A DNA stretch of 64,000 bases from a virus, in the IMG/VR virus record IMGVR_UViG_3300024999_000093, positions 3,696 through 67,695 of that record. The stretch is one strand, 5' to 3'. Position numbers and translations under genes: made by a program. The notes under the pieces are model-generated. The model saw only the letters and a list, made by a program, of their open reading frames with translations, was not told the origin of the DNA and did not search any database. Below, piece by piece: positions 1,995 through 49,781 of the stretch (its first letter is position 1; every line of letters starts with the position of its first letter).

Positions 1995-2735
1995 TTATCC
2001 GTCATAGCATCCACATGCTTGATCTACTACATCTACAAACATCTTTATTTGGTTGGCATCATCATTGATGAGCGAATTCCATGAATAACTTCTTCCTAAT
2101 CCTTCAACAACCGTTAATTCAGCATTGTTTTCCATATCTAATGCTCTTTTTAGTAAATCAGGATGCGATTCCCTTAACTCGAATATCTCAGCCTTTTTCA
2201 TTGATGGGCAGAAGAAGCAACTACTTTTACCTGGTTGAGGAAGTCCCGCATCCGCTATGGTCTTAATGCAAGCATCACGGTCCATCTCCCACTCAATCAA
2301 GGGAAACCAATTAGTGTATTTTTTATCAAGTGATTTCCGCATTCTCCGTTCTTCCCCGTACTCATAACCGATTGCTTTGGTTACTGTCTCGCCATTTTTC
2401 CAAGCATCTACAAATGGTTGAAAATGGTTAGCGAACTTGTCCTGCGGTTGTGCCTTAAAGCGTTGAGAGCATGTCTTAAATCCATAAGCTAGGCTTGGCA
2501 ATGCTTTTCTAGCTAGGCAATCATCTTCGAGCGTTTTTGACCCCTTAACTACGGTAATTGGAGGCATGTTGTGTCCTGCTAGCCAAAGAGAAAACATTGT
2601 GATATAGAAGTAAGTTTCCGGTAGTTCTCCCCCTGTATCGGCAAAGAGAATTAAGTCTGGACGCACTCCCCTATTTGACATCTCTACTAGCTCTGCGGTA
2701 CTGTCTGTGCCTCCTCCGTAGCAAACTAGCAACAT
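1995..2735 (-). CDS. PAPS reductase-like (PP-loop) protein
   Basis: YGGGTDS PP-loop, LFADTG, C-terminal KSSCFFCP motif. Confidence 0.75.
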   Translation of the reverse strand: MLLVCYGGGTDSTAELVEMSNRGVRPDLILFADTGGELPETYFYITMFSLWLAGHNMPPITVVKGSKTLEDDCLARKALPSLAYGFKTCSQRFKAQPQDKFANHFQPFVDAWKNGETVTKAIGYEYGEERRMRKSLDKKYTNWFPLIEWEMDRDACIKTIADAGLPQPGKSSCFFCPSMKKAEIFELRESHPDLLKRALDMENNAELTVVEGLGRSYSWNSLINDDANQIKMFVDVVDQACGCYDG

Positions 2736-3067
2736 AATTTATCCGCCACTCGAATCGTTATTGCCCGATGCAGTGTAGCCATAAATTCCATAACCTCAAG
2801 CTCCCTATTCGTGCCTAAAACTTGCTCCTGAACCGTAAAGTCAGAATTGGCAGACTGTAGAGCGTTGGCAATGGTGCTACCGACTGAACGAGGAGATGAT
2901 TTGTTTATTGCCGCTACTTCAGCGTAAAGTTTTGATGGAGTGAGGATTAACTGAGGGTTTTGGTTGATTAGGGATAGTGCTGATTGTAGGAGGCGATAAC
3001 CTTTTAGATGAGGAGGTATGCGTAGGGTTTGGAGGGATTTTAAGACTTCGGCTTCAAATGCGGTCAT
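2726..3067 (-). CDS. stand-alone Spo0A C-terminal (effector) domain homologue
   Basis: LRIPPHLKGYRLL...KLYAEVA...SSPRSVGSTIANAL parallels Spo0A IGVPAHIKGYLYL...[25 protein letters not shown]; no receiver domain. Confidence 0.8.
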   Translation of the reverse strand: MTAFEAEVLKSLQTLRIPPHLKGYRLLQSALSLINQNPQLILTPSKLYAEVAAINKSSPRSVGSTIANALQSANSDFTVQEQVLGTNRELEVMEFMATLHRAITIRVADKLCC

Positions 3068-4145
3068 GCTGATTGCTCCTTTCTAAAACTTTCACAACCC
3101 GCTCAAAAATGAAATCAGGACACGGTTCTGCTACAGAATTCCCAACTGCCTTATATTTCGCTGAATCACTTGCTCCTTCGATGTCTAGCCAGTTGTCTGG
3201 AAATCCTTGTAACCTTAGGCACTCGGTTGGGGTTAGTCGGCGTACTCGGTAGCCGATGCGAACAGTATTTTGATAGTTAAGACTGTATCCACCGGTGTTT
3301 TTTGATTGCAGGGTTCCACTTAGTTCTTCTGTCTCGCATAGGTTGCGAACGTCTACAGCAACAACGGTGTCTACATCACCCCTAAATGATAAATTGGCTT
3401 TGGCGAGAAGTGTATTAGCCGGGTCGGGGTAGGCTACAGCTTGCCCACTGGCTAAATCTAACGTGTAGCTTATTTCTTCAGTCAACCCCCAGCCGTTGCT
3501 GCTCGTTTGGGCTGTACGAATAGCGTAGGTTGGCTTGGCTATTACTGGCACTGTATTACCACCTGCGCTGCCCTTAAGGGTTGGTGATAACTCCTCCGCA
3601 AACCCTATTGAGCGTGCATCTGCTGAGTTTCCAGCACTGAAGGCATCATAGGTTGGCTGCAAGCAAACTAAGCTATAGTGCTCGTCTCCCGCTGGCCCAC
3701 CGGTTCCCTTTGCCCACTTACTGCTGACGGTTCCGCTAATCCCCCCCCCGTTCGCAGTTAATCCGGCTTGCTGCTTTAATGCCATTTCCAGAACCGGAGG
3801 CAATTTCTTCCCACGCTTTTCCGCTCTCCTGAGGATCCCCAGACAAGCCTTCTTGCTCAAAAAGTATTTCTCCGACACATTGACCTCCAAAATCTGCGAC
3901 AAGGTAGATTCTCTTACGACGTTGGGGGACACCCCAATATTGAGCATCGAGTACTCTCCAAGCCACTGAGCGCCCGTTCCCTCTAACCATTCCGGCTTCT
4001 GCCCATCGTCCAGATCGAGGTATTGGAATTTTGGCCTCTGTGATTTCTTCAAGGACTGCCCTAAAATCGTGACCGTTGTTTGAGCTAAATGCTCCGGGGA
4101 CGTTTTCCCAAATAGCGAATCTTGGATACATTCCATTTGTGGCAA
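3054..4145 (-). CDS. C5 DNA methyltransferase, C-terminal/beta polypeptide (TRD region, motifs IX-X)
   Basis: ESTLSQILE...KYFLS segment, RRLTPTECLRLQGFPD (motif IX), YKAVGNSV (motif X); overlaps the N-terminal ORF in another frame. Confidence 0.75.
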   Translation of the reverse strand: MPQMECIQDSLFGKTSPEHLAQTTVTILGQSLKKSQRPKFQYLDLDDGQKPEWLEGTGAQWLGEYSMLNIGVSPNVVRESTLSQILEVNVSEKYFLSKKACLGILRRAEKRGKKLPPVLEMALKQQAGLTANGGGISGTVSSKWAKGTGGPAGDEHYSLVCLQPTYDAFSAGNSADARSIGFAEELSPTLKGSAGGNTVPVIAKPTYAIRTAQTSSNGWGLTEEISYTLDLASGQAVAYPDPANTLLAKANLSFRGDVDTVVAVDVRNLCETEELSGTLQSKNTGGYSLNYQNTVRIGYRVRRLTPTECLRLQGFPDNWLDIEGASDSAKYKAVGNSVAEPCPDFIFERVVKVLERSNQHDRI

Positions 4146-7971: not shown

Positions 7972-8352
7972 ATGAGGTATGGGGAAAAGTTTAAATATGC
8001 GAGAGAATTAAGGAAATTAACATTGCAGGAGCTTTCTGTAAAATGTTCTCTATCTATACCATATTTATCAGATATTGAGAGGGGAAAGAAAAGGCCAGCC
8101 ATGAAAAGCTTAGAAAGAATAGCCAATGCTCTTTCTGTCGATGCTTGGTTTTTTATGGACGACAAGGCTATATCCCTATCCGAATTAACAAAGATTAGTG
8201 GATATGACCCACCAGATGACATTATAGAGTTCTTTAGCAAGTCCGATTCACTACCTTATGCAGTTCTTGCCCGCGACCTACACAACGAACAAATAGACCC
8301 CATATTCCTACGCGAACTCTTAGAGTCGATTAAGAAGATGAAGTCTAGATAA
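7972..8352 (+). CDS. CI-like XRE HTH repressor
   Basis: LTLQELSVKCSLSIPYLSDIERGKKRPAMKSLERIANAL HTH. Confidence 0.85.
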   Translation: MRYGEKFKYARELRKLTLQELSVKCSLSIPYLSDIERGKKRPAMKSLERIANALSVDAWFFMDDKAISLSELTKISGYDPPDDIIEFFSKSDSLPYAVLARDLHNEQIDPIFLRELLESIKKMKSR

Positions 8353-8515
8353 TGTTAAGATTTGTGAATATTTTGCATAAACAAGGCAGATATTCACTTT
8401 TTTGCGTCCATATTAGAGTATGTTGCAACACTAGGTCGATAACTTGTGTCTTTATACCCACTTAATTAAATGTCTCCGTGCTGTATTATAATAATAACTC
8501 TAATAATGCTATCTT

Positions 8516-8752
8516 TTGAGAGAAGGGAAGTTTTGTTGTGTGGTTGTATCGAAAGACTTGGGAGGATATTTTAAGTATGTAGTCGTTGACAAGGATTTAG
8601 TATTAGTTGACCCAACGTACATGCAAGAGTATCTAAGGGATTATCCGGTAGAGAAGTTATCGTTATGCAGGAGAAGACCTATGTTATGTATGGCGATTAA
8701 GGCATTGGTATGTGCTTACGTCATTGGTGTGGTTATTCACATTATTCTCTGA
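8516..8752 (+). CDS. small hypothetical protein with C-terminal TM helix
   Basis: hydrophobic C-terminus; start uncertain. Confidence 0.4.
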   Translation: MREGKFCCVVVSKDLGGYFKYVVVDKDLVLVDPTYMQEYLRDYPVEKLSLCRRRPMLCMAIKALVCAYVIGVVIHIIL

Positions 8753-8796
8753 AGATTGAAGGATTGAATGGTTAACCTGTCGAATTAGGCATAATG

Positions 8797-8909
8797 GAAA
8801 ACCCCCTGAGATTCCACCAGCAAAGTGATCTCAAGGGGTTCGTTAGACAGGGGTTACCTGTGCTTTATGTTGTGATTACATTATAAGGTATAAGGTGGGC
8901 TCTTGTCTA
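8797..8909 (-). ncRNA. putative antisense countertranscript controlling rep (interval includes its promoter)
   Basis: Minus-strand TAGACA(8909-8904)-N18-TATAAT(8885-8880) pointing into a hairpin + U-tract at ~8840-8797 in the rep leader. Confidence 0.5.
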
Positions 8910-9328
8910 TTTCTAAATTGATTAGACAGGGGTTTTTTGTTGTGTTCAGATTGCCGCGCCCGAAAAAGAATTTCACAGAAGTGCCAAATGTAGTGTTCGA
9001 CAAACTCATGCCGGAGATAAATAACTTCGCTGCCCTTAAATGCTATTTCACTCTCATAAGGAAGTGCTGGGGATGGGAGAAGGTTGGCGACTACTTAGCT
9101 ATGCCTCAACTCTTGAAGCTAACTAAGCTATCGAGGCCAAGCATTACGGCCGGGATGAGATGGCTAGAGGAGCGCGGCTACATATGGATAGTCAAGGCCG
9201 GGAGTCCAGGAGGCGAGAAGGTTATGTACTTCCTTTGCTCTGAGGATACAGAACACCTTGAGAGATCCGTAAAAGAAGGATTGATAAGCCCCAATACTCT
9301 CTATGAAATGATGATGAAAGAGAGATAA
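8903..9328 (+). CDS. replication initiator (wHTH, lambda O/plasmid Rep-like N-terminal domain)
   Basis: NFTEVPNVVFDKLMP...LIRKCWGWEK...LTKLSRPSITAGMRWLEERGYI; true start may be slightly downstream. Confidence 0.7.
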   Translation: MSISKLIRQGFFVVFRLPRPKKNFTEVPNVVFDKLMPEINNFAALKCYFTLIRKCWGWEKVGDYLAMPQLLKLTKLSRPSITAGMRWLEERGYIWIVKAGSPGGEKVMYFLCSEDTEHLERSVKEGLISPNTLYEMMMKER

Positions 9329-9331
9329 TAG

Positions 9332-9480
9332 TTATCCACAACCCCGCAAGAATCTTACCCCCTCCCCGAAAGAACTTTGCGGGGACCCCGAAAGAATCTT
9401 TCCCCACAAAATATACTCTTACAAGAGTTATATCTTATTATTAATACAATGGTGGTTATCCACAGAAAGGGTGTGTATAA
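9332..9480 (+). repeat. iteron-type replication origin with DnaA boxes
   Basis: TTATCCACA at 9332 and 9456, TGTGTATAA at 9472; iterons CCCCGmAAGAAyyTT at 9342, 9364 and 9386 (22-bp period); AT-rich stretch 9405-9450. Confidence 0.85.
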
Positions 9481-9483
9481 GTC

Positions 9484-10023
9484 ATGTACTTAACGCTCAA
9501 GGATTGCGCTGAATTAGCACACATTAATGTATCATCAGCTCGCTTCTACAAAGATAAAGACGAGTTCAGACATTACTTCAAAACAACAGGAGAAGGCAAG
9601 AAGATTAAGTACGAAGAGAAGTCAACGGTTGAGGTGCTTCAATTCATTAGCAAATCCTACACAGAAGGTTTAGACGCAGACCAAATAGTCAATTTAATGG
9701 ATAATAAGTTTGGTATGATAGTTACCGACTTAACGGCGCAAGAACCGGACAATACCACCGAGACAACGCAACAAGAAGATTTAACGCATAGTATAAGGCT
9801 TATGCTTCAGCAAGAACTTAACAAGCGCGACAAGCTAATCCTTGAACTACAAGAGGAAATCCAAAGCATAAAGGAAATTCTGCTAAAACAAGATGAGGGG
9901 GCGGAGGATAGGTCTAGGAGCTCAGAGTTTAGGGATAGAGACATACTGCAAAGGATCAACGAAATAAGGGCAGAGCAACAACAACGCAATAAGCCATGGT
10001 GGAAACGATTTAGCCGGACATAA
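9484..10023 (+). CDS. MerR-type HTH + coiled-coil protein (RacA/DUF3967-like, putative segregation factor)
   Basis: N-terminal LTLKDCAELAHINVSSARFY HTH, long coiled coil, C-terminal amphipathic KPWWKRF. Confidence 0.65.
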   Translation: MYLTLKDCAELAHINVSSARFYKDKDEFRHYFKTTGEGKKIKYEEKSTVEVLQFISKSYTEGLDADQIVNLMDNKFGMIVTDLTAQEPDNTTETTQQEDLTHSIRLMLQQELNKRDKLILELQEEIQSIKEILLKQDEGAEDRSRSSEFRDRDILQRINEIRAEQQQRNKPWWKRFSRT

Positions 10024-10057
10024 TATGTCTGGTTATTTTTTTGTCTAATATTGGATG

Positions 10058-10087
10058 GAATAAATGGCAAGTATTACGTCATACCTT
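10058..10087 (+). promoter_or_regulatory. candidate sporulation (sigmaE/sigmaG-type) promoter of the FtsK operon
   Basis: GAATA-N17-CATACCTT upstream of GGAGG RBS; no evident sigmaA TATAAT. Confidence 0.45.
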
Positions 10088-10125
10088 TAATCATGTAGCA
10101 CACCAATAACTCAGGAGGGTCACAT

Positions 10126-10323
10126 ATGGAAGGCATAACTATTCTTAGAGCAAGGATAAGGAAGCGAGATAAGGACATCAAGCAAGCTATTGCTTTCCTA
10201 AATCTTGAAGAAGGGGAATTGGCAGACATGATTAGGGACGGATTGAGAAAGATATTAATCGAAAGAGGTGTACTAGTTGGCAATAAAGCAAAACGCAATA
10301 GAGGAAGTCAGGGACCAACTTAA
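10126..10323 (+). CDS. small ribbon-helix-helix-like DNA-binding protein
   Basis: ILRARIRKRDKDI...LADMIRDGLRKIL pattern. Confidence 0.55.
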   Translation: MEGITILRARIRKRDKDIKQAIAFLNLEEGELADMIRDGLRKILIERGVLVGNKAKRNRGSQGPT

Positions 10324-11413
10324 ATCACTTTGGTTGCATCGTAAAGGAAACGATGCTCATGCTGCGGTTCAGGATTGTATAGACGCCTTGTACTCCAAGG
10401 ATGAATTAAAACCTTTAATTATCAAGAAGTCAAAAGATGGTGAAGTTTGGGCGTTTAATATCTTCCTTCCTCCCGGAACCGGATTCACTGATTTTCAGAA
10501 AAAAACTCAACTATTCGCAGACTCAACCGGGGGATCGGTTCATATCGAAAAGCACGGGAAATTAGTCACCATGGAGGTTATGACTGAGGAACTTAAAAAT
10601 AAGTACCCATATTCCCTCTACGACCACACCAAATATTCCAAGATGGAATTACCACTACCATTAGGTGTGTCCGCCAAGGGATTAATAGTCAGGGATCTTG
10701 TTGATTATCCTCATTTACTCACAGCAGGAGAAACGAACTATGGTAAATCGAATCAGCTTCATGTAATCGCAAATTCAATTCTACTTTATAGGCAAGATAC
10801 ACACTTGATTATCATCGACCCAAAATCTACTGAGTTTGACTATCTCGGCGAAATGGCACTAGTTGTTGATGAAATGAGCCAAGTTAAAGGTTTGTTCGAG
10901 TCATTGAATAAGGAGATGGATAAGCGAAAGAAGATTCTCAAGTCAGTATCTTGTGCAAAGATTAAGAAATATCATGAGAAAGGCCACGCGATGCCGTATA
11001 TCGTCCTAATCATAGACGAGTGGGCAGACTTGCCAGAAGATGCACAAGACAGCTTGTGGAGGCTTCTAAGGATGGGAAGATTCGTTGGGGTGCATGTAAT
11101 CGCAGCCACGCAACGACCATCGTCTAAAGTGTTTGAAAAGTTCGGCGACCTAAAGGCTATGTTCCTCGGAAGATTATGCTTTGTTGTTGCAGACACAATT
11201 AACAGCAGGATTATCTTGGATTCGGACGAGGCGGCGTACCTTCCGGCATTGAAAGGTAGAGCTATTTACAAGTGTGGTCTTGAGAAGCTAGAAGTTCAAA
11301 CATTGTTACTGGAACCCGATGAAGCAATAAAACTCTATAACAACAGGACGATAATCACACGAAGTGAGTTGATTAAGATTGAACAACCACGCAAAATGTT
11401 GTCGCCGAGATAG
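10277..11413 (+). CDS. FtsK/SpoIIIE-family ATPase (coupling-protein-like)
   Basis: PHLLTAGETNYGKS (Walker A), IIIDPK, IVLIIDEW (Walker B), AATQRP; no evident TM or gamma domain. Confidence 0.9.
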   Translation: MAIKQNAIEEVRDQLKSLWLHRKGNDAHAAVQDCIDALYSKDELKPLIIKKSKDGEVWAFNIFLPPGTGFTDFQKKTQLFADSTGGSVHIEKHGKLVTMEVMTEELKNKYPYSLYDHTKYSKMELPLPLGVSAKGLIVRDLVDYPHLLTAGETNYGKSNQLHVIANSILLYRQDTHLIIIDPKSTEFDYLGEMALVVDEMSQVKGLFESLNKEMDKRKKILKSVSCAKIKKYHEKGHAMPYIVLIIDEWADLPEDAQDSLWRLLRMGRFVGVHVIAATQRPSSKVFEKFGDLKAMFLGRLCFVVADTINSRIILDSDEAAYLPALKGRAIYKCGLEKLEVQTLLLEPDEAIKLYNNRTIITRSELIKIEQPRKMLSPR

Positions 11414-12065
11414 GGAAATAGTCGACCTCCTAGAATCCCAAACAGCCCTAACCACTGACATGATTCACCTACTCTTATTCAAGGGAAATTGCCTCCGCAT
11501 AGTCCAGCGCCGCCTTTCTATCCTTTCATCTCCACCACACGCTAAAATCAATCGTGACAGGCTAAGATTAGGCGAGCCATATCATTACTATCTTGATCGT
11601 AGACCGGGGCAATTAGAGCATGTTCTGGGCGTGTCATGGGTTTTTACTTGGATAAATACGACTCTCTCTAGTATGGAAAAACTCCATTGCTTTGATCGGG
11701 AAATTAAGGATTACAAAACTATTCGTCCGGATGCCTTTGTTGGCATAAAGAATCTATGGCAAGGTGTTATGTACTTCTACTTTGTTGAGATGGATATTGG
11801 CAGAAGTGGTAATGATTTCGCCAAGAAGGTCAGAAAGTACAATGAGCTTTTTAGCTCAGGGGCCTATATGAATCAATGGTGGGTTCCTTTGTCCAAGAGA
11901 TTCCCGGCCATTATCGTTGTTACTACCGGAAGAATTAAGGCTATTAAAGAAAAGATTGCAAGGGAAAACGTCAACAACCTTGAGTTTAGAGTATATTCCT
12001 TGGACCAAATAAAGGAGGAATGTCTAAATGGCAGAAGCAGCAAGGGAGGTATTCGGACCAGGTAA
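11379..12065 (+). CDS. replication-relaxation (Replic_Relax-like) protein
   Basis: wHTH N-terminus (RDREIVDLL...LTTDMIHLLLF...VQRRLSIL), EHVLGV, PD-(D/E)xK-like IRPDAF...FVEMDIG; follows FtsK. Confidence 0.75.
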   Translation: MNNHAKCCRRDREIVDLLESQTALTTDMIHLLLFKGNCLRIVQRRLSILSSPPHAKINRDRLRLGEPYHYYLDRRPGQLEHVLGVSWVFTWINTTLSSMEKLHCFDREIKDYKTIRPDAFVGIKNLWQGVMYFYFVEMDIGRSGNDFAKKVRKYNELFSSGAYMNQWWVPLSKRFPAIIVVTTGRIKAIKEKIARENVNNLEFRVYSLDQIKEECLNGRSSKGGIRTR

Positions 12066-12264
12066 GCCGGGATTTGTGATTATCATCTTGGTTATGCTTG
12101 GCGTGGGATCCTGGTTGGGAGAATTAATACTAGGAGCAGTGAATAAGGGGCAGGTTGCAGGAATGTTAAGAACGGCAACTACAATAGTTGCGATTCTAGC
12201 CGTAGTAGCTGTAGCGTGGCAATTGCTTAAAAAGTTCTTTGACTTTACGACAGGCGTGATGTGA
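12028..12264 (+). CDS. two-TM membrane protein, SpoIIIAC/AD-like
   Basis: TM-(GELILGAVNKGQVAGML)-TM layout resembling SpoIIIAC. Confidence 0.5.
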   Translation: MAEAAREVFGPGKPGFVIIILVMLGVGSWLGELILGAVNKGQVAGMLRTATTIVAILAVVAVAWQLLKKFFDFTTGVM

Positions 12265-12265
12265 T

Positions 12266-12850
12266 GTGGCTTTATGGATTTTTCACATAGTATTTATTGC
12301 GGTAGCATCTTTTGTGGCATATGTAATCCTTATTGCTGTAGAAAGAAAGCAACTAGCCAATTTAGTAGCAATGGTGGCTATTATGCTAGGATTATTAACT
12401 ACCATGCAGGATCTTACTCCAACCTTAAAGAGATTAAATGAAAGGATAGATTCGATTCAGGGAACAGTTGAAAAAGTATCAAATATTGGTCAAGGAAATA
12501 ACGAGTTGCCAATGAAAGGAAAGATAACTCAATACTTTAACGGAGTGGATCATCACGGGATTGACATAGCTGCGCCAGAGGGGACTATTGTAACATCATA
12601 TTGGAAAGGAGAGGTTATTAAGGTATGTTGGGACGATATTTACGGCAATATGATTATTGTGAATCATGGTAATGGGGTCGAGACTTTATATGGTCATTTG
12701 AATGGGTTATCTGTGAAAGTTGGTTATCCAGTGATTGCGGGCGCAAGATTAGGAAGTTGCGGGAGTACGGGTAGATCATCAGGTCCACACCTACACTGGG
12801 AGGTAAGGAAGGATGGAATTGCCGTAGATCCCATGAAATACTTAAAATAA
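12266..12850 (+). CDS. SpoIIIAC-like TM hairpin fused to M23 peptidase
   Basis: 2 TM + coiled coil, then HHGIDIA...YGHL...STGRSSGPHLHWEVR (intact HxxxD/HxH). Confidence 0.85.
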   Translation: MALWIFHIVFIAVASFVAYVILIAVERKQLANLVAMVAIMLGLLTTMQDLTPTLKRLNERIDSIQGTVEKVSNIGQGNNELPMKGKITQYFNGVDHHGIDIAAPEGTIVTSYWKGEVIKVCWDDIYGNMIIVNHGNGVETLYGHLNGLSVKVGYPVIAGARLGSCGSTGRSSGPHLHWEVRKDGIAVDPMKYLK

Positions 12851-12946
12851 TTCCCCCTTGCTTGTCCTTTGTAATCCTTGATCATTCCCCCTAGACCCCT
12901 TTTTCCTAGAAAAATCATAGGTATTTAGCGCGTTTTAGCTTGTACT

Positions 12947-13007
12947 TCAGTCGTTTAGGGCGACCGACACAGTGACTGATATAAAGAACGACCGATACGG
13001 CGACCGA
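12947..13007. repeat. YGACYGA heptad cluster (candidate oriT or centromere)
   Basis: direct copies at 12961, 12973, 12989, 13001; inverted copy at 12947. Confidence 0.5.
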
Positions 13008-13014
13008 TTAGACA

Positions 13015-13047
13015 GCCCCTATTCTTATCGAATAGGGGTGTTTTATT
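13015..13047 (+). terminator. intrinsic terminator
   Basis: CCCCTATTC-ttatc-GAATAGGGG followed by T-rich tract. Confidence 0.7.
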
Positions 13048-13048
13048 T

Positions 13049-13077
13049 GCATAATTATTTCAATTAGGGACATAATA
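13049..13077 (+). promoter_or_regulatory. candidate forespore sigmaG/sigmaF promoter
   Basis: GCATA-N17-CATAATA, with GGG preceding the -10. Confidence 0.6.
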
Positions 13078-13095
13078 ATTTTTAGCAAAGGAGAG

Positions 13096-13374
13096 ATGGG
13101 GATGAAAGGATTAGCGATAATAACAGCTATATTAATAGCAATGGCAAGCACAAACCCACCTAGAAGCGATTATGTAGCATGGGCAAAGGATAAGGCGATA
13201 GAGCGCAGTGCGCCTGGACTAGAGAGTGGATTAGTTTATTTCCTTGGCAGCCCATTAATAAACTCTGTGACAACATCTAAGGATCTTTATTTTGGAACTA
13301 TTTTTACTACGTACTATGGAGACGATGAGATAACAACGTTGGGCGTGATGAATCAGTTTATTCCCTTGAAATAG
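13096..13374 (+). CDS. small exported/membrane protein (DUF4359-like)
   Basis: signal/TM helix, TNP..DY..W motif, C-terminal TLGVMNQFIP. Confidence 0.55.
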   Translation: MGMKGLAIITAILIAMASTNPPRSDYVAWAKDKAIERSAPGLESGLVYFLGSPLINSVTTSKDLYFGTIFTTYYGDDEITTLGVMNQFIPLK

Positions 13375-13377
13375 AAA

Positions 13378-13405
13378 ATACCATCCGAGTTGGATGGTAT
13401 TTGTT
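13378..13405. terminator. bidirectional terminator between convergent blocks
   Basis: AATACCATCC-gagtt-GGATGGTATT. Confidence 0.7.
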
Positions 13406-16613: not shown

Positions 16614-17474
16614 TTAATAAATTTCTCGCCTTTCATCATACCTAGTTTCGTAATAACGGTTAATCTTTATCTCTCCCGATAGGAAATGGATTATATTGTA
16701 ATCACCAGACTTATATTTTGTCTTAAAATGAGCATCAATAATATTTTCCATCGTGTATATGTCATTGTCCACTGATTCGTTCCTTTGATTATCCCAAAGA
16801 TAAAACCATTCATCTATAACTTTCTTCCATTGATGAATTTTCAAATCAGGATGGTCTATCCTTTTCTTTCGCTTGTACGCCTTGAGATAATAAGAAATAT
16901 TTTCTTCTATGTCCTTATTGAATTTAAACTGTTCCGTAAATTTCAAAAAAGAAAGGCGCGGATTGTCATCGCCAGATGCAATTCCCATACAATTAGTATT
17001 GTGTTTAGTATTCTTAGACTTAGTATTATTTGCTCTCCCATATAGCGTTTTTGTTTCAGCTACTTGGGAGTCTTTAATTCCTCCCATATGGCGTAATTGT
17101 GATGTAGCAAGGGTTTCGGCTTGTTTTATTTTTCCCTTAGCTAATAAATCCTTTAAAAGCTGCTCATTGTCTAGGATAGCAAAGTGTCTCTTAGGTGGCA
17201 TACCCCTTCTGTCAATGTCTATTAACCCTAGTGTCTCAAGATTTTTAATAGCAACCCTTTGAGGTTTTTCCCCTAATCCTGTTCCTGATTGTAAATCACT
17301 GATGGTATTGTAGAAGTAACCATCTTCCGTTAGATTTCCTCTATCCGAGAAATAACTAAATCTTGATACTAGCTCGGCATAGATAATCGACTCATGCAGA
17401 CCGATGGAGAATATGAGATTCTTGTTAATAACGATGCTTCCATCTGCCCTAAGTAAGTCGTAAATTGGGTTCAC
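16614..17474 (-). CDS. replication initiator/replisome-organiser-like wHTH protein
   Basis: IVINKNLIFSIGLHESIIYAEL...DGYFYNTISDLQSGTGLGEKPQRVAIKNLETLGLI; internal repeat CTCCCATATRGCG. Confidence 0.7.
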   Translation of the reverse strand: MNPIYDLLRADGSIVINKNLIFSIGLHESIIYAELVSRFSYFSDRGNLTEDGYFYNTISDLQSGTGLGEKPQRVAIKNLETLGLIDIDRRGMPPKRHFAILDNEQLLKDLLAKGKIKQAETLATSQLRHMGGIKDSQVAETKTLYGRANNTKSKNTKHNTNCMGIASGDDNPRLSFLKFTEQFKFNKDIEENISYYLKAYKRKKRIDHPDLKIHQWKKVIDEWFYLWDNQRNESVDNDIYTMENIIDAHFKTKYKSGDYNIIHFLSGEIKINRYYETRYDERREIY

Positions 17475-20634: not shown

Positions 20635-23600
20635 CTACTTTTTTAATTTCAGAGTAGTTCCGGATTGAATGTACTTAATTCCTCTACCATCAAGAATGTA
20701 CTTCTTGCCCTCAAACCTTGCCTTCTCAATAGCTTTAGCCATCTTATCGATCTGATTATCCATACTCATACCCGGGGAGATCACGCCAAAATCCTTCCTT
20801 GTTCTCTCTCCAACGATTCTTTGCATTTCTGCATATTCCTTAGAAGTAAGGTCAATCCTTTGGTCTGTAATCGTAAAATACTTAGGAATCACAGTTGGTA
20901 TTTGCTTAGTCTCCCCGGTCTGATTATAAGCATTTAATGCAAGCTCAGCTTCTTTAGATGGTGAATACTTGGACACAAAACTTGGATTAGCAAGAACATT
21001 CAACGGGCTATTACTTCCGCCTTGATAGGTTTCCGCTTTATTGCCTAATGCGTCATAGGCTGGTTGGAGCCTAGTTTCAAGCAATGGTATTTTACTAGCA
21101 GATAGATTAGCTGTTTTCTCTGTCCAGTTCGGGCTATAGGTATTTCGTTTTTGGTTATCAAGTAATTGTTTTGCTTGATTTAAGAAAGTAGGAACAAATG
21201 AAGCCGGAACGCCTTGCAGAATTTTTGTAATGCCATCGCTAAAATCTCTTTGCCCAACTAAAGTTTGTAGTCCTTGCATTACCGGTTGCTCAGCAAATGC
21301 GTTTACGCCAGTCGCAAGCCCGTTCAAGAGAGTTCCCACTATGCCTTGTGCCTTTGCCCCATTCTTGTCTATGTCGGCCCCCATAGCGATAGGCAGAGCT
21401 TGGGGCTGGAACCAATCATAGGTAGCCAAGGTATCCCCCTTCTGCAATTTAGCAGCATCAGCATCTAGTCCACCCAGTACAAATCTTTTTAATGCACTAA
21501 TATTAATTTTGTACTGACCTAAGCCTATGGAATCATTCAATGCAGCAACATCAGGATCCTGATCCCTGGCCCCGGATATAATTCCGGTTCGATGCAGTAA
21601 TGCTCCAGTTCCTACGAGTCCTGTACTTCCAACGGTAGCCCTAGAGAATGCCTGAGCAAATGCTCTTTGGTCGAATTCCTTGCCCATTAGTGGTTTAGCT
21701 GCCTCCATGACTGTCTTAATAAATCCAGCGGGAGAGTAGTCTATTCCGCGGGAAAGTAGGCTTGCCGGCGTGCGTGGGTATTTAATAATGAAATCTCCAG
21801 CACCAAATTCCTTATCTCCATTAAGTTTCTGCTTGAATGTAGAGAATAGTTCGCTTAAATAGTTTTTATCTTGGAACGTCCGGTATTTTCCATCATAATT
21901 AGCAATCTCCTTCATAGCTTCCGTTGGTTCAGTTACCCTAGCGGCCTTCATTTGACTCCTCAACGAATCATCATAGGCAGCTTGGTAGAATGCTCTGTCA
22001 GGTGTCCTCAATTCAATATTCATAGCAGTTTCAGCTTTACCGAGGATACCTTTTCTGAATGTTCTTGTTGGATTAAGATCAAACTGCGATCCCAGTCCAG
22101 AAGTATCTATTCCTTTCATTGCATCCTCTAGCCCAAGTTTCCAACCCGCCTTCGCTCCTGATGCTTGAGTTTTCAAACTTGGAAGAGACATAGTTCTTTG
22201 TTTAGTGAATAAACTAGCAGCCTTATCAATTCCAGCACCCAAAACTTGACTGGCATTTTCTAATCCTGAGAACCCACCATTGCCAATTATATTCCTTAGA
22301 GCTGTTTTGGGGTTGAGTAATTGCGCCATAGTTTGAAGGGTCGCTACTTTCTGCCAAAACGAAGGAGGAACTTGCGATGCTACTGTATCTAGCATCCTAG
22401 CGATAGCAACTTGTCTTTCTCTCGAACCTTCAACCATACCCTGAATAGCGTTTGATTGCTCCACAAGGGTTTGAGCGGTTTCTTCGTTAAGTTTAGTCTC
22501 AGTTATCTTCCCCGCTTCATTTGCCTTCTTGACAACATCATCAGCATATTTAAGTATCCCTTCAGGCGATAACCTTCCCCACATTGAAAGCGCTTGGATA
22601 GCTTGCCCTTGACTCCTTGCTTTCTGAGAAGTTTTCTCAATAATGTTAATTGCTTCTCCGAACTTTCCGGCATCGTTCGCCTCTTTGATTAGTAATTGAG
22701 CCACGGCATTGCTTTCTGCGGTGGCCGGAGTTTCAGACATAACGAGATGCAAGGCCGCATCCTTATCCTTCTGGATATACTGCCTAGCTACTTCTAGGGT
22801 GTCTTTGTTGGTTATGTTTCCGTAGTTTAGTTCAGCATTCTTTAATTGTTCTACTAATGCCGGATCTGCTATCTCACCTTTTGCTACGGTATCAGGGAAT
22901 GATAAACGCTTGATTCCAACAGGTTCAACCCTCGGCATAGAAACCTTATCTAGCCCCTTGAGCACCAAGGTAGATGAAGGTCTTTCAATTACGGTCGCAG
23001 CGCTTCTGCTGGCTAAAGGCCTAATGGGTTCACTAATCGAAGCAGAATACCCAAGGTTGGGCATTTCGGAACTAACAGGACGAACTTCACCCAACCCCTG
23101 AAAAGGAATCCTATCCTTAATCAAACTCTCGTTAGTCCGTATTGATTTACTTGGTGCCTCAAGCATTCTGGCAGCAGGAGAAACTTGTTCAGGGAGGCTA
23201 CCAGATAAGGTCAATCTCTTTGGAGGCTGGATTGGTGGTTGCTCAGGTTGCGGAGTTAATTCGCGCGGCTTCAACTTAGGAATAGATTCAATCGTCCTTT
23301 TTCCAGGTAACTCACCTTTTAATGAGTCCAACGTGTTACTTAGAGCTTGATACTCAGGATCGCTGTAAGCCACACGGTACGCCTCGGTAACATAATCCTT
23401 TGGTTTATACGAAGAGTCGCTTATAGAGGTTAACAGCTCATCTGAGGACATTCCTAGTTCGTCAGCCACCTCATCCAATGGTCTGCCTGTTTTATCATTC
23501 CTGATCCAATTAGGGATAACTTTTTGCTCTTCAAATATGTCGGGATTTCCCTGCTTAATACCCCCTCTTGCCTTGACTTGATTGCGGATAGACTCAACCC

Positions 23601-24699
23601 TAGTTTGTCCATCAGCTTGCTTAAGAGACTTTGCTATATCCTGAACTTGCTTTTCCATCTTTGCTGATATTTCGTTTATGTCAGATTGAAGAGTATTCTT
23701 AAATGATTTAATAGGCTTACCGAACGCCTCTAGCCCACCATAACCCTCTGTAGACTTTCCGATACCCATACTGTCATCAATCCCCTGCTGTAATGTCTTG
23801 CGGGTAGCAGGAGTATCCACAGAGCCTATCGGAAGGTCTTTGAATGTGTCGTTTAGTTCAGCTTGTCTATTTTTGTAAGCCAATTCCTTTGGAGATAATT
23901 GAAGTGGTTCAGCCTTAGTTTCGAGCAAAGGTTTCCTGAAAGCATTTTGCACAGCTTCATCCAAAGGTTGAGCCAATTGTCCAAGTCTGCGGTCTGCAAG
24001 GATGTTTCTTGCTCCGTTAATTCCTTTTCCGGCCAATTGACCACCACCATGAAGCAACGATCCGCCAAGTGCCATTATAGGTGCTTCTTTCAGTCTGCCG
24101 GCGAATCCATCTACACCATCTCTATCTAGTGAAGTTTCTAACGCATTGATAGGTAGCGCGGCTGTTGCCCCGGCCCTTACACCCGTACCTAATGCAGGAG
24201 TAATTGCTTTAGGCAACAAGCTTACTGCCTTTGCAACCGGTTCAGTCTTGGACAATGCCGCCAAAGGCTTCGCTAGTAGAGCATCGCCCGAAACCCATAG
24301 CGGCAAATCGCTAACCATGTTCGACCCAAAGGATACAGCCTTTTCCCCTAATGTGTTCTGTTCGGGAAGGGTCGATAAGTCAACCTCCTTGCCTGTTATC
24401 TTCTCAGCCAATGGAGTTAACGCCCTCCCAGGTAGTGAACTTAGTGTTCCCTTTATGAAAGCTGCCTTGTAATTTGGATCTTGTTCAGCCGGTTCATTGG
24501 TAGAGGAATGAGACGAACGCAAATTATCCATGCTGATTAGAGGTTCGCGTTGAGTGGTTGGCGTTGTGGTATCCGGAAGCTCGTCCAAGAAATCAAAAAT
24601 GTTTCCACCGGACGAACTATTTCCAGCAGTAGGGGTGATAACGCTTATTGATTTATTCCTTTCGTCTTCATCATCTAAGTAATCGAATATATTCGCCAT
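20635..24699 (-). CDS. large internal virion/ejection-type protein
   Basis: 1354 aa, last gene of the podovirus-like structural operon; no tape-measure signature. Confidence 0.6.
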   Translation of the reverse strand: MANIFDYLDDEDERNKSISVITPTAGNSSSGGNIFDFLDELPDTTTPTTQREPLISMDNLRSSHSSTNEPAEQDPNYKAAFIKGTLSSLPGRALTPLAEKITGKEVDLSTLPEQNTLGEKAVSFGSNMVSDLPLWVSGDALLAKPLAALSKTEPVAKAVSLLPKAITPALGTGVRAGATAALPINALETSLDRDGVDGFAGRLKEAPIMALGGSLLHGGGQLAGKGINGARNILADRRLGQLAQPLDEAVQNAFRKPLLETKAEPLQLSPKELAYKNRQAELNDTFKDLPIGSVDTPATRKTLQQGIDDSMGIGKSTEGYGGLEAFGKPIKSFKNTLQSDINEISAKMEKQVQDIAKSLKQADGQTRVESIRNQVKARGGIKQGNPDIFEEQKVIPNWIRNDKTGRPLDEVADELGMSSDELLTSISDSSYKPKDYVTEAYRVAYSDPEYQALSNTLDSLKGELPGKRTIESIPKLKPRELTPQPEQPPIQPPKRLTLSGSLPEQVSPAARMLEAPSKSIRTNESLIKDRIPFQGLGEVRPVSSEMPNLGYSASISEPIRPLASRSAATVIERPSSTLVLKGLDKVSMPRVEPVGIKRLSFPDTVAKGEIADPALVEQLKNAELNYGNITNKDTLEVARQYIQKDKDAALHLVMSETPATAESNAVAQLLIKEANDAGKFGEAINIIEKTSQKARSQGQAIQALSMWGRLSPEGILKYADDVVKKANEAGKITETKLNEETAQTLVEQSNAIQGMVEGSRERQVAIARMLDTVASQVPPSFWQKVATLQTMAQLLNPKTALRNIIGNGGFSGLENASQVLGAGIDKAASLFTKQRTMSLPSLKTQASGAKAGWKLGLEDAMKGIDTSGLGSQFDLNPTRTFRKGILGKAETAMNIELRTPDRAFYQAAYDDSLRSQMKAARVTEPTEAMKEIANYDGKYRTFQDKNYLSELFSTFKQKLNGDKEFGAGDFIIKYPRTPASLLSRGIDYSPAGFIKTVMEAAKPLMGKEFDQRAFAQAFSRATVGSTGLVGTGALLHRTGIISGARDQDPDVAALNDSIGLGQYKINISALKRFVLGGLDADAAKLQKGDTLATYDWFQPQALPIAMGADIDKNGAKAQGIVGTLLNGLATGVNAFAEQPVMQGLQTLVGQRDFSDGITKILQGVPASFVPTFLNQAKQLLDNQKRNTYSPNWTEKTANLSASKIPLLETRLQPAYDALGNKAETYQGGSNSPLNVLANPSFVSKYSPSKEAELALNAYNQTGETKQIPTVIPKYFTITDQRIDLTSKEYAEMQRIVGERTRKDFGVISPGMSMDNQIDKMAKAIEKARFEGKKYILDGRGIKYIQSGTTLKLKK

Positions 24700-48555: not shown

Positions 48556-48601
48556 CAACCACAAGCGAGCTGGCGCATCCAGCGTTAAGGAGGAAAACAA
48601 C

Positions 48602-48748
48602 ATGCCAGCAACCAAACCCCAACACGGTGGTAAACGCACCGGAGCTGGCCGCAAACCATCCGGCAGGAAATCACAATCTATCTACGTCACTGACTCAGAA
48701 CATGAACAAATCAAGGCATTAATAGCAAGACTAAGGATCACTAAATAG
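48602..48748 (+). CDS. small DNA-binding protein with GGKRTGAGRK (AT-hook-like) motif
   Basis: Manual translation MPATKPQHGGKRTGAGRKPSGRKSQSIYVTDSEHEQIKALIARLRITK; AAGGAGG RBS. Confidence 0.65.
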   Translation: MPATKPQHGGKRTGAGRKPSGRKSQSIYVTDSEHEQIKALIARLRITK

Positions 48749-48766
48749 GTGATCCTTTTCTATTCC

Positions 48767-48795
48767 TTGACATACTAGCTAACTAGCTATATACT
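48767..48795 (+). promoter_or_regulatory. strong sigmaA promoter with CTAGCTA repeats in spacer
   Basis: TTGACA-N17-TATACT; CTAGCTA twice (operator-like). Confidence 0.7.
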
Positions 48796-49728: not shown

Positions 49729-49781
49729 TACCACAAGGCTAGCAGGGAGCCATATACCCTGCAAGGAAAGAAGGTAATCGA

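What the first reader, a model, noticed from the sequence alone, without database searches (positions are those of the whole stretch)
10058..13007. Minimal DNA-translocation operon with sporulation-type parts: RHH, FtsK, relaxase-like, SpoIIIAC-like and SpoIIIAC-M23
Seen: five translationally coupled genes. They encode an RHH protein, a soluble FtsK/SpoIIIE ATPase with no evident TM or gamma domain, a replication-relaxation PD-(D/E)xK protein, a 2-TM protein, and a 2-TM protein fused to an intact M23 peptidase. The operon is preceded by GAATA-N17-CATACCTT and followed by a heptad repeat cluster. No VirB4/VirB6 or pilin genes are evident. Known: coupling ATPase + relaxase + RHH is the core of a relaxosome. 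SpoIIIAC/AD and the M23-fold SpoIIQ belong to the mother cell-forespore channel. Inference: a sporulation-induced machine that processes the phage-plasmid and pumps it across the septal/engulfment membranes so the extrachromosomal prophage is inherited by the spore. A stripped-down cell-to-cell transfer system is the alternative.
Basis: partly seen in the sequence, partly recalled or inferred. Interest (0 to 1): 0.85.

Follow-up and report, generated by a model that had tools for sequence, protein, structure and literature searches.

The report
Phage FtsK–relaxase cassette, SpoIIIAC-like anchors
A phage of a spore-forming bacterium carries a compact five-gene operon that looks built to cut its own DNA at a repeat site and push it across a membrane and cell wall, and two of its membrane parts are distant relatives of sporulation-channel proteins.

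Summary
Five overlapping + strand genes (10126-12850) sit between two terminators. They encode an RHH-like protein, a soluble FtsK/TcpA-type ATPase, a Replic_Relax (MOBC-type, PD-(D/E)xK) nuclease, a 2-TM protein and a 2-TM–M23 peptidase fusion.

Both membrane proteins are remote homologues of SpoIIIAC/AD (hhalign probability 75-91%, reversed controls 1.2% or less), though below Pfam's cut-off. The "heptads" are four YGACYGA repeats about 12 nt apart. Relatives keep the array with lineage-specific repeat sequence, and two Bacillus phages carry similar arrays. ATA-N17-CATACCTT keeps its two boxes while the spacer diverges, and it resembles a mother-cell sigma promoter.

The core (FtsK, Replic_Relax, SpoIIIAC-like protein) recurs in 36 of 80 related viral loci; M23 occurs only in the window's subclade. 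All named relatives come from endospore formers.

Best reading: a self-contained module that processes the phage DNA and translocates it across the membrane. Whether the destination is the forespore (about 0.3) or a neighbouring cell (about 0.3) cannot be decided in silico. The FtsK–Replic_Relax pair is already annotated in Bacillus phages. I did not find the SpoIIIAC link, the M23 fusion or the repeat array in print.

The parts
10011..10035 (+). Intrinsic terminator-like hairpin plus T-run. It ends the upstream 179-aa gene and isolates the cassette as its own transcription unit.
   Evidence: 11-pair stem, then TTTTTTTGTC. Also present in L082, L085 and L093.
10059..10088 (+). Promoter-like element GAATA-N17-CATACCTT, i.e. 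ATA -35, 17-nt spacer and a CATA-type -10.
   Evidence: L082 and L085 keep both boxes while the 17-nt spacers diverge. No sigma-70-like site on the + strand at 10036-10126. The sigma assignment is inference.
10126..10323 (+). 65-aa RHH-like DNA-binding protein, probably an accessory factor or autoregulator.
   Evidence: (9 homologues; R12 D15 D17 I18 G30 R37 G39 R41 L44 invariant). No HMM support.
10277..11413 (+). Soluble FtsK/SpoIIIE-family ATPase of the TcpA/FtsK type: an N-terminal domain with no sequence match to any solved structure (residues 1-109) followed by the RecA-like motor. No TM segment and no gamma domain.
   Evidence: G151, G156, K157 invariant; S158 in at least 90%; TcpA 6o1z 9.5e-47, FtsK 2iuu 1.2e-41, TrwB 1e-4.
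11379..12065 (+). Replic_Relax (MOBC-superfamily) protein: a helical N-terminal domain (possibly wHTH) plus a PD-(D/E)xK nuclease domain.
   Evidence: (Y70 H81 D118 E137 K150 invariant, D139 in at least 90%). The PF13814 = MobC equation is from PMC5357655.
12028..12264 (+). 78-aa 2-TM hairpin protein with a conserved GKG loop. It is the universal partner of the FtsK–Replic_Relax pair and a remote SpoIIIAC/AD homologue.
   Evidence: family found in 36 of 80 loci; hhalign 75%, P 2.5e-5; reversed controls 0.1-0.2%.
12266..12850 (+). Fusion of a SpoIIIAC/AD-like 2-TM domain (residues about 1-60) with an intact M23 metallopeptidase (residues 96-189).
   Evidence: (PF06686 15.2 bits at window 12278-12418). 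In L089 the same 2-TM domain stands alone as a 62-aa protein.
12851..12960 (+). Conserved non-coding block between the M23 stop codon and the repeats. Candidate processing or nic region.
   Evidence: blocks are shared with loci whose proteins are only 46-63% identical. No significant ssDNA hairpin (z -0.04). The function is inferred.
12961..13008 (+). Array of four direct YGACYGA repeats, starting at 12961, 12973, 12989 and 13001. Candidate binding site for the cassette's DNA-binding proteins.
   Evidence: (family D2). Arrays of 4 repeats with lineage-specific sequence occur in L089, L091, L092 and L093 (3 in L090). Arrays with 12-nt period lie upstream of the cassette in Bacillus phages DLc1 and A16R4.
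13015..13039 (+). Intrinsic terminator-like hairpin that closes the transcription unit.
   Evidence: 10-pair stem, then GTTTTATTTG.

Best explanation
The cassette is a self-contained module that processes the phage's own DNA and moves it across a membrane and wall.

Shown:
- A discrete operon bounded by terminators.
- A TcpA/FtsK-type motor with no membrane anchor of its own.
- A MOBC-type PD-(D/E)xK nuclease with intact conserved acidic and lysine residues.
- Two small 2-TM proteins of the SpoIIIAC/AD kind, one fused to an intact M23 peptidase.
- A conserved cis array of four repeats about 12 nt apart, next to a conserved non-coding block.

Inferred mechanism:
1. The RHH-like protein, the N-terminal domain of Replic_Relax, or both, bind the repeat array. 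pAD1 TraX does this with its 5 direct repeats.
2. The nuclease nicks or cuts in the conserved block about 75-100 nt away.
3. The soluble FtsK hexamer loads there. The two SpoIIIAC-like hairpins hold it at the membrane, taking the place of the N-terminal TM domain of SpoIIIE, TraB or TcpA.
4. The M23 domain opens the peptidoglycan locally.
5. The phage genome is pumped out of the compartment it occupies into an adjoining one.

The destination, a neighbouring cell or the forespore, is not resolved; I rate the two about equal.
For: - Operon anatomy.
- Motor: the best solved relative is the pCW3 coupling protein TcpA (9.5e-47), then FtsK (1.2e-41). TrwB/VirD4 is remote (1e-4).
- Nuclease: PF13814 above its cut-off, PD-(D/E)xK fold, conserved residues. 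PF13814 is the MobC relaxase superfamily (PMC5357655, passages). TraX of pAD1 has an N-terminal wHTH and binds 5 direct repeats 70-120 bp from nic (PMC12857230, passages).
- Cis site: four repeats clustered within 47 nt. Relatives keep the array with lineage-specific repeat sequence. Similar arrays occur in DLc1 (period 12, 4.5 copies) and A16R4.
- Synteny: Replic_Relax follows FtsK in 34 of 80 viral loci by tblastn. The 78-aa family is present in 36 of 80 by HMM.
- Soluble motor next to TM partners.
- SpoIIIAC/AD likeness.
- The phage has separate lytic replication genes (DnaB-like, DnaD-like) on the other strand, so the cassette is not its main replication module.
Against: - No test shows that the motor contacts the TM proteins.
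- There is no inverted repeat or stable hairpin of the kind usual at oriT.
- M23 is confined to 14 of 80 loci, and L089 lacks it, so wall cleavage is not a core function.
- No VirB4-type ATPase or pilin family was found, and how a second membrane would be crossed is unexplained.
- Authors of Bacillus phage papers read the FtsK–Replic_Relax–RHH set as plasmid replication or segregation genes (PMC9658697, PMC11526630, passages). PHROGs labels the nuclease family 'replication initiation by nicking'.
- The cassette also occurs in a phi29-like lytic phage (DLc1), where self-transfer is hard to rationalise.
Confidence: 0.55

Rival explanations
1. Forespore delivery. A mother-cell sigma factor (sigma-E type) switches the operon on after asymmetric septation. 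The SpoIIIAC/AD-like hairpins place the phage FtsK motor at the septal or engulfing membrane, possibly by docking on the SpoIIIA–SpoIIQ complex. A phage genome copy is then pumped into the forespore and survives in the spore.
For: - SpoIIIAC/AD likeness of both TM proteins.
- In 52 of 61 sampled Bacillota genomes the PF06686 family was found with 2 or 3 matches per genome (3 in most); where coordinates were listed, the matches of a genome lie within about 1 kb of each other. The further 4 of 4 cassette-bearing genomes also carry it, one of them with a fourth, short match elsewhere.
- ATA-N17-CATACCTT fits the published description of sigma-E promoters: an ATA -35, 16-18 bp spacing and -10 boxes such as CATATTAT (PMC3789822, passages). 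Its two boxes are conserved while the spacers diverge. The pattern is rare: about 4 loose matches per 128 kb, as in shuffles. No sigma-70-like site is nearby, and the record encodes no sigma-70 region 2.
- Named relatives are Desulfitobacterium, Desulfosporosinus, Sporomusa, Pelosinus, Thermoanaerobacterium, Bacillus, Priestia and Clostridium tetani.
- Of the phage FtsK hits shown, those that reach into the N-terminal domain are from Bacillus and Geobacillus phages and one Stenotrophomonas record (TS-12, identical in its values to the Bacillus PfEFR/MY192 rows). Bacillus accounts for 273 of the 405 phage records with a hit.
- Plasmid pMU3262 has a true SpoIIIAC-family gene (3.9e-13) and a Spo0E-family gene flanking its FtsK–Replic_Relax pair.
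- The cassette occurs in lytic phage types where plasmid maintenance or conjugation make little sense.
Against: - There are no expression data.
- In L089 and L095 the -10 lacks the C of CATA, and L094 has no match.
- The palindromic AATATT -35 could be an operator instead.
- Fah's FtsK is reported as delayed-early in vegetative infection.
- 14 of 32 cassette-bearing records have an integrase.
- A nicking enzyme is not obviously needed to pump dsDNA.
- Host distribution is confounded by phylogeny. My contingency test had no power: 4 of 4 carriers were sporulation-marker positive, but so were 324 of 401 genomes.
- The SpoIIIAC similarity is below Pfam's cut-off.
Confidence: 0.3
2. Cell-to-cell transfer. 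The cassette is a mobilisation or minimal conjugation module: a TcpA-like coupling motor, a MOBC relaxase, an accessory RHH protein, an oriT-like repeat site and a wall hydrolase. It moves the phage or prophage DNA to a neighbouring cell. It does so either on its own, in the manner of Streptomyces TraB–clt, or by using a resident T4SS.
For: - TcpA is the closest solved relative.
- The MOBC family, and the TraX bind site made of direct repeats.
- Five Bacillus plasmids carrying the pair are typed 'mobilizable' in PLSDB.
- The small TM protein at the same position in phage Novomoskovsk is annotated TrbC/VirB2.
- One of the 27 family members gives a weak TrbC hit, 0.0012.
- That wall hydrolases are regular parts of Gram-positive conjugation systems is recalled.
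Against: - No VirB4 (AAA_10) or TrbC family in the record.
- NCBIfam TraB scores 46.8 bits against a cut-off of 800.
- In streptococcal IMEs, PF13814 relaxases pair with VirD4, never with TcpA.
- The element is a complete tailed phage with its own route of spread.
- The pair also occurs in lytic phi29-like and Andromeda-like phages.
Confidence: 0.3
3. Plasmid-state replication and segregation only. Replic_Relax initiates replication by nicking at the repeat array (iterons), FtsK resolves or segregates the copies, and the RHH-like protein is a centromere-binding adaptor. The membrane proteins are accessory.
For: - PHROG labels.
- Authors' readings in PMC9658697 and PMC11526630.
- ORFs that look ParM-like lie next to the cassette in L090 and L102 (that identification is by eye and recalled), and ParM/StbA is annotated in pMU3262.
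- A RepO-like gene lies upstream in the same + strand island.
- No integrase in the record.
Against: - It does not explain the universal 2-TM partner (36 of 80 loci) or the M23 fusion.
- The cassette occurs in DLc1, a Salasmaviridae (phi29-like) phage, whose protein-primed replication (recalled) needs no nicking initiator.
- It also occurs in integrase-bearing prophages.
- The phage has separate DnaB-like and DnaD-like genes.
Confidence: 0.15

Closest known systems
FtsK/SpoIIIE–Replic_Relax operons of Bacillus phages and phage-plasmids (Novomoskovsk/Bolokhovo, RBClin15, Wbeta-like A16R4, phi29-like DLc1)
   Same: Same gene order: small protein, FtsK, Replic_Relax, small TM protein. An RHH protein lies nearby. 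Repeat arrays with a 12-nt period are present. The hosts form spores.
   Different: FtsK identity is 30% or less. In those phages the repeat array lies upstream rather than downstream. The Novomoskovsk TM protein is annotated TrbC/VirB2 and matches none of my 78-aa, 2-TM or SpoIIIAC HMMs. There is no M23 fusion. No function has been tested; the authors call the genes plasmid replication or segregation genes.
pAD1 TraX (MOBC relaxase) and its oriT
   Same: A PD-(D/E)xK relaxase family with an N-terminal wHTH. Its binding site is made of direct repeats set some distance (70-120 bp) from the nic site (PMC12857230, passages).
   Different: pAD1 uses a full T4SS. In streptococcal IMEs, MOBC relaxases are paired with VirD4-type coupling proteins. 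Here the partner is TcpA/FtsK-like and no T4SS is present. Nicking was not tested here.
pCW3 TcpA (Clostridium perfringens conjugative coupling protein)
   Same: The closest solved structure by sequence (6o1z, 9.5e-47, query residues 110-349). It is an FtsK-like hexameric motor proposed to move dsDNA (review passages).
   Different: The solved TcpA construct lacks its N-terminal TM domains (review passages), so the native protein has them; it works with TcpM and a VirB4-containing apparatus (VirB4 partly recalled). The window's protein has no TM segment, and the record has no AAA_10.
SpoIIIE and the SpoIIIA–SpoIIQ channel of endospore formers
   Same: An FtsK-family DNA pump, small 2-TM proteins of the SpoIIIAC/AD kind, and an M23/LytM-fold protein. 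These are the same part types that act at the mother cell–forespore interface (PMC2703783, passages).
   Different: The cassette is not in a spoIIIA operon. PF06686 scores are 15-19 bits against a cut-off of 24. The SpoIIQ model scores 66 bits against 250. No SpoIIIAA, AB, AE, AF, AG or AH counterparts were identified in the cassette. The motor lacks SpoIIIE's TM and gamma domains.
Streptomyces TraB–clt dsDNA conjugation
   Same: An FtsK-like motor acting on a cis locus of short repeated 8-mers next to its own gene, together with small membrane (Spd-like) proteins. This comparison is recalled, not tested.
   Different: NCBIfam plasmid_TraB scores 46.8 bits against a cut-off of 800. TraB has its own TM domain and a C-terminal wHTH (recalled). 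No nuclease is required there (recalled).

Membership tests
FtsK/SpoIIIE ATPase family (PF01580) | Domain hit above the Pfam gathering score, with a Walker A P-loop | tested here: met
   75.2 bits against a cut-off of 24. G151, G156 and K157 are invariant and S158 is in at least 90% of 23 homologues.
FtsK/SpoIIIE ATPase family (PF01580) | N-terminal TM domain and C-terminal gamma (wHTH) domain, as in canonical FtsK and SpoIIIE | tested here: not met
   No hydrophobic window reaches KD 1.6. No FtsK_gamma hit at E<=0.1.
TcpA-type conjugative coupling protein | Closest to TcpA rather than to VirD4/TrwB | tested here: met
   6o1z 9.5e-47 against TrwB 1e-4. FtsK itself is nearly as close (1.2e-41).
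TcpA-type conjugative coupling protein | Encoded together with a VirB4-containing T4SS | tested here: not met
   No AAA_10 (PF12846) match at E<=1 in the whole record. No TrbC match. VirB6 was not tested.
Replic_Relax / MOBC relaxase (PF13814) | Domain hit above the gathering score | tested here: met
   33.6 bits against 25.3, covering profile positions 94-182 of 191. PF13814 = MobC per PMC5357655.
Replic_Relax / MOBC relaxase (PF13814) | PD-(D/E)xK fold with conserved acidic and lysine residues | tested here: met
   Model pLDDT 90.3. Foldseek matches EndoMS, MunI, EcoO109I and Nt.BspD6I. D118, E137 and K150 are invariant and D139 is in at least 90%.
Replic_Relax / MOBC relaxase (PF13814) | Site-specific nicking at an oriT; binding to direct repeats | not testable with these tools
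   A four-repeat array and a conserved adjacent block exist. Binding and nicking need biochemistry.
SpoIIIAC/AD family (PF06686) | Pfam gathering score (24 bits) | tested here: not met
   N-terminus of the M23 protein: 14.7-15.2 bits. Homologues: 19 bits (L088 record) and 17.7 bits (L089 record). In all, 3 of the 8 viral records searched gave a match. The window's 78-aa protein gave no hit; 2 of 27 family members hit at 0.014 or weaker.
SpoIIIAC/AD family (PF06686) | Profile-level homology over the whole ~55-residue 2-TM domain | tested here: inconclusive
   hhalign: 78-aa family 75% (P 2.5e-5, 51 columns); 2-TM domain 78-91% (P 1.8e-5 to 1.3e-6, 52-53 columns); reversed controls 0.1-1.2%. With my own SpoIIIAC/AD HMM, the 17 best of 6,276 viral ORFs are all the TM proteins that follow Replic_Relax; the window's own protein ranks 21st at E 0.13. 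The pMU3262 SpoIIIAC protein hits the 78-aa HMM at 2.8e-4. This is supportive, but short TM proteins are treacherous.
SpoIIIAC/AD family (PF06686) | Encoded in a spoIIIA operon | tested here: not met
   It is encoded in a phage FtsK–Replic_Relax operon.
Peptidase M23 (PF01551) | Domain hit, plus the HxxxD and HxH metal motifs | tested here: met
   108.3 bits against 28.7. H96-D100 and H175/H177 are present. The motif definition is recalled.
SpoIIQ (NCBIfam NF053738) | Equivalog cut-off of 250 bits | tested here: not met
   66.2 bits; MepM, Pgp3 and ShyA score higher.
Ribbon-helix-helix (CopG/Arc/MetJ) | HMM or fold match | tested here: inconclusive
   No Pfam hit at E<=0.1. PDB profile search: a CopG/Arc/MetJ antitoxin is top at E 0.33. 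The model's strand-less N-terminus followed by two helices fits RHH. Foldseek found nothing.
Streptomyces plasmid TraB (NF041214) | Equivalog cut-off of 800 bits | tested here: not met
   46.8 bits.

The most novel reading that the evidence does not exclude
Phages and plasmids of endospore formers carry their own spore-entry machine. A mother-cell sigma factor switches on a phage FtsK motor. Phage-encoded SpoIIIAC/AD paralogues plug that motor into, or mimic part of, the SpoIIIA–SpoIIQ channel at the engulfing membrane. A MOBC-type nuclease marks the phage genome at a four-repeat site, so that one copy is pumped from the mother cell into the forespore. If so, spore entrapment of viruses would be an active, virus-encoded process, and the 'feeding tube' family would have a DNA-conducting relative.
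Probability: 0.3. Interest if true: 0.9.

Novelty: new variant of a known kind. Interest (0 to 1): 0.62.

Why it matters
FtsK/SpoIIIE genes are conspicuous in phages of spore formers: 273 of the 405 phage records with a hit are Bacillus phages. They have only been explained by guesswork, in terms of DNA injection, segregation or sporulation control.

This locus shows that the motor belongs to a fixed module. The module has a sequence-specific nuclease, a cis repeat site and small membrane partners that appear related to SpoIIIAC/AD. Those two are the least understood parts of the sporulation channel.

That turns two open questions into bench experiments. How do extrachromosomal viral genomes get into spores? 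What do SpoIIIAC/AD-type hairpins do?

If the destination is instead a neighbouring cell, the module would be a T4SS-free DNA-transfer device in Firmicutes carried by a tailed phage.

Tried and rejected
- Complex prediction, FtsK alignment with the 78-aa family alignment: no verdict, score 0.00. This is not evidence either way.
- The look-up of sequencing runs: 7 DNA holders from groundwater and sediment metagenomes (4 studies) and no RNA holder listed.
- Sporulation contingency test. PF13814 was found in 26 of 401 sampled Bacillota genomes. Only 4 of the 27 loci had FtsK directly upstream, and 2 of those had the TM partners. All 4 genomes have SpoIIIAC and SpoIVA, but so do 324 of 401 in the sample. 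The test therefore has no power, and taxon names were not given.
It returned only generic FtsK cores (at most 41% identity), no close relatives.
- blastn of the region against phages: no match.
- tblastn with Replic_Relax found only 3 phage and 5 plasmid records, all Bacillus.
- Non-spore-former phage hits that I inspected are other FtsK types: an EssC-like protein in a Streptococcus suis record and an SP15-like Listeria phage without Replic_Relax.
- Tandem Repeats Finder did not call the window's array or A16R4's array. They were shown by pattern counts instead.
- The ssDNA fold of 12900-13012 is no better than shuffles.
- Protein Atlas. For the 78-aa protein, the second-nearest named cluster (score 0.84) carries PF06686 on 14% of its members, which is a lead only. 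The 2-TM domain gave no usable hit.
- Homologue search with the 2-TM region found 6 proteins, all annotated with PF01551 only.
- Foldseek of the RHH model found nothing.
- Sigma-like patterns upstream of the Bacillus and Thermoanaerobacterium cassettes gave no consistent picture.
- Print search. One search listed 18 papers that hold both SpoIIIAC and SpoIIIAD; none has a phage or plasmid title. In one search the only two listed papers that hold SpoIIIAC together with phage, plasmid or conjugation are C. difficile sporulation papers. Searches cover FtsK–Replic_Relax in phages. The tables of PMC5357655 and PMC3789822 could refine the MOBC and sigma-E comparisons.

Full report
**Where the window comes from.** The window is bases 3696-67695 of a 67,695-bp IMG/VR virus record, classed as linear and 100% complete by CheckV. 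It is a tailed phage. On the - strand it has a large terminase, portal, major head protein, tail-fibre-like proteins, endolysin, DnaB-like helicase, DnaD-like loader, dUTPase, dCMP deaminase and several HNH/EndoVII genes.

The finding lies in the larger of two + strand islands, at 7972-13374. That island opens with a 126-aa HTH_3 protein placed divergently from a Rha gene. A weak RepO-like wHTH protein and a 179-aa protein of unknown function follow. No tyrosine integrase, serine recombinase or resolvase family is found in the whole record. A sibling record, G414, has direct terminal repeats, is 100% complete and also lacks a tyrosine integrase.

**The observation.** All five ORFs exist as described and overlap by 47, 35 and 38 nt, followed by a 1-nt gap. 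Terminator-like hairpins at 10011-10035 and 13015-13039 bracket them. The cassette plus its 3' non-coding region is therefore one transcription unit.
- The 378-aa protein is an FtsK/SpoIIIE ATPase with no TM segment and no gamma domain. By sequence its closest solved relative is the pCW3 coupling protein TcpA (9.5e-47), just ahead of FtsK (1.2e-41). VirD4-type TrwB is remote. Residues 1-109 have no solved relative.
- The 228-aa protein is Replic_Relax, above the Pfam cut-off. A confident model (pLDDT 90.3) matches PD-(D/E)xK nucleases, and Y70, H81, D118, E137 and K150 are invariant in 21 homologues.
- The M23 domain is strong (108 bits) and has its histidine and aspartate motifs. It is not a SpoIIQ orthologue.
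- The RHH assignment is plausible but unconfirmed.

**SpoIIIAC/AD likeness.**
- Pfam PF06686 gives consistent sub-threshold hits (15-19 bits, cut-off 24), always on the 2-TM domain that heads the M23 protein. In the Desulfitobacterium hafniense provirus (L089) that same domain stands alone as a 62-aa protein. In all, 3 of the 8 viral records searched gave a match.
- I built a SpoIIIAC/AD HMM from 96 domain copies taken from the regions around chromosomal PF06686 matches (loci; built). I searched it against all 6,276 six-frame ORFs of the window and 80 viral loci. The 17 best hits are all small TM proteins immediately downstream of Replic_Relax. The best are L089 at 1.6e-6 and a 78-aa-type member in L116 at 4e-5. 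The window's own fusion ranks 21st at 0.13.
- Profile-profile comparison gives 75% probability for the 78-aa family and 78-91% for the 2-TM domain, over 51-53 of about 55 columns. Reversed-sequence controls give 0.1-1.2%.
- Independently, the Thermoanaerobacterium plasmid pMU3262 has a bona fide SpoIIIAC-family gene (3.9e-13) two genes upstream of its FtsK–Replic_Relax pair. That protein hits my 78-aa HMM at 2.8e-4.

I conclude that both membrane proteins are probable remote members of the SpoIIIAC/AD kind, but they fail the formal Pfam threshold. A rival label, TrbC/VirB2, has only one weak member hit and no hit in the record.

**Conservation.** Across 80 viral loci fetched with the FtsK alignment:
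- Replic_Relax follows FtsK in 34 by tblastn.
- The 78-aa protein is found in 25 by tblastn and in 36 by HMM.
- The 2-TM–M23 fusion occurs only in the 14 closest loci.

So the core is FtsK, Replic_Relax and a SpoIIIAC-like hairpin; M23 is a subclade addition. Some members of the hairpin family have a signal-peptide-like N-terminus.

Named homologues are from Desulfitobacterium hafniense (64% identity), Desulfosporosinus, Sporomusa and Pelosinus. One MAG is labelled Moranbacteria, which I suspect is mis-binned. The host is therefore probably a spore-forming member of the Desulfitobacteriaceae or a relative.

A tyrosine integrase is present in 14 of 32 cassette-bearing viral records, and in 7 of the 16 that are at least 90% complete.

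**The cis elements.** After the M23 stop codon comes a conserved non-coding block and then four YGACYGA repeats at 12961, 12973, 12989 and 13001. These are 4 of only 12 + strand sites in 64 kb. Relatives whose proteins are 46-63% identical keep the block and the repeat array, but the repeat sequence is specific to each lineage. That pattern is expected if the repeats co-evolve with a DNA-binding protein. Arrays with the same 12-nt period lie just upstream of the homologous operons in Bacillus phages DLc1 (TRF: period 12, 4.5 copies) and A16R4. This parallels pAD1 TraX, the MOBC prototype, which binds 5 direct repeats 70-120 bp from nic (PMC12857230, passages).

Upstream, ATA-N17-CATACCTT is the only strict + strand match in the window to a mother-cell-type pattern, which occurs about as often as in shuffles. 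L082 and L085 keep both boxes although the spacers have diverged. L093 has CATATTAT at the aligned position, while L089 and L095 lack the C. The description of sigma-E promoters (ATA -35, 16-18 bp spacing, CATA-type -10) comes from PMC3789822 (passages). Assigning this promoter to that sigma factor is inference.

**What is already known.** The FtsK–Replic_Relax pair, sometimes with an RHH protein and a small TM protein, is annotated in Bacillus phages and phage-plasmids. It has been interpreted without experiments as plasmid replication or segregation genes, as an aid to DNA injection, or as a sporulation-related function (PMC9658697, PMC11526630, PMC3853050, PMC4113786; passages; gene orders). 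PF13814 equals the MobC relaxase superfamily (PMC5357655) and belongs to the PD-(D/E)xK superfamily (PMC3424549). I found no paper linking SpoIIIAC-family proteins to phages or plasmids.

**Mechanism and verdict.** The anatomy fits a module that binds its own DNA at the repeat array, nicks or cuts nearby, loads a soluble FtsK hexamer held at the membrane by the two hairpin proteins, and opens the wall with M23 in this subclade.

The destination is open.
- For the forespore: the SpoIIIAC/AD kinship, the promoter, the restriction of named relatives to spore formers, the presence in lytic phage types, and the SpoIIIAC and Spo0E neighbours on pMU3262.
- For a neighbouring cell: the TcpA and MOBC kinship and the wall hydrolase.
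- Against a spore-only role: the reported delayed-early vegetative expression of Fah's FtsK and the co-occurrence with integrases.
- Against conjugation: no VirB4 or pilin family, and the carrier is a complete phage.

I give the general module 0.55. Within the alternatives I give forespore delivery about 0.3, cell-to-cell transfer about 0.3 and replication or segregation only about 0.15. It is a new variant of a known but uncharacterised kind.

Noticed in passing
window 13096-13374 (+): A 92-aa protein with a signal-peptide-like N-terminus and a DUF4359 hit right at the cut-off (27 bits, 7.5e-6). It follows the cassette's terminator with its own RBS. It is conserved downstream of the cassette in L082-L088 (43-76% identity) and in L118 (31%). 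A perfect 11-bp inverted repeat that reads as a two-way terminator follows it at 13376-13402.
   Followed up: partly
L164 (plasmid pMU3262) 5176-5367 and 7778-7990: The FtsK–Replic_Relax pair of this Thermoanaerobacterium plasmid is flanked by a true SpoIIIAC-family gene and a Spo0E-family phosphatase gene. That puts two sporulation-type genes beside the same pair.
   Followed up: partly
window 31889-32905, 41919-42884, 55022-55621, 57881-58603 (-): Four HNH/EndoVII-type endonuclease genes are scattered among the structural and replication genes. They are likely homing endonucleases.
   Followed up: no
window 1995-2735, 3054-4145, 58604-59158, 62065-62958 (-): PAPS-reductase-like, C5 cytosine methylase, dCMP deaminase and radical SAM genes. 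Together they could form a DNA or nucleotide modification set.
   Followed up: no
window 8903-9328 (+) and 16614-17474 (-): Two separate RepO-like wHTH genes. One lies in the + strand island just upstream of the cassette, the other on the - strand.
   Followed up: no
window 20635-24699 and 26389-27903 (-): ORFs of 1,354 aa and 504 aa in the tail region have no PHROG match at 1e-5.
   Followed up: no
window 47923-50373 (+): A second small + strand island of three ORFs (two tested, no PHROG match). It coincides with a sharp AT-skew excursion (+0.29 at 48001-50000).
   Followed up: no
L099 6013-6825, L107 5964-6770, L115 5847-6662; L090 6672-7484, L102 6558-7370: In distant relatives, ORFs that look Ku-like or ParM-like by their N-terminal sequences lie just upstream of the cassette. 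This identification is by eye and recalled, not tested.
   Followed up: no
L112 6368-7531, L117 6512-7456, L118 6236-7426: In three relatives an ORF that looks integrase-like by eye sits directly upstream of the FtsK cassette; their records do carry a tyrosine integrase. The layout resembles small integrative mobilisable elements.
   Followed up: partly
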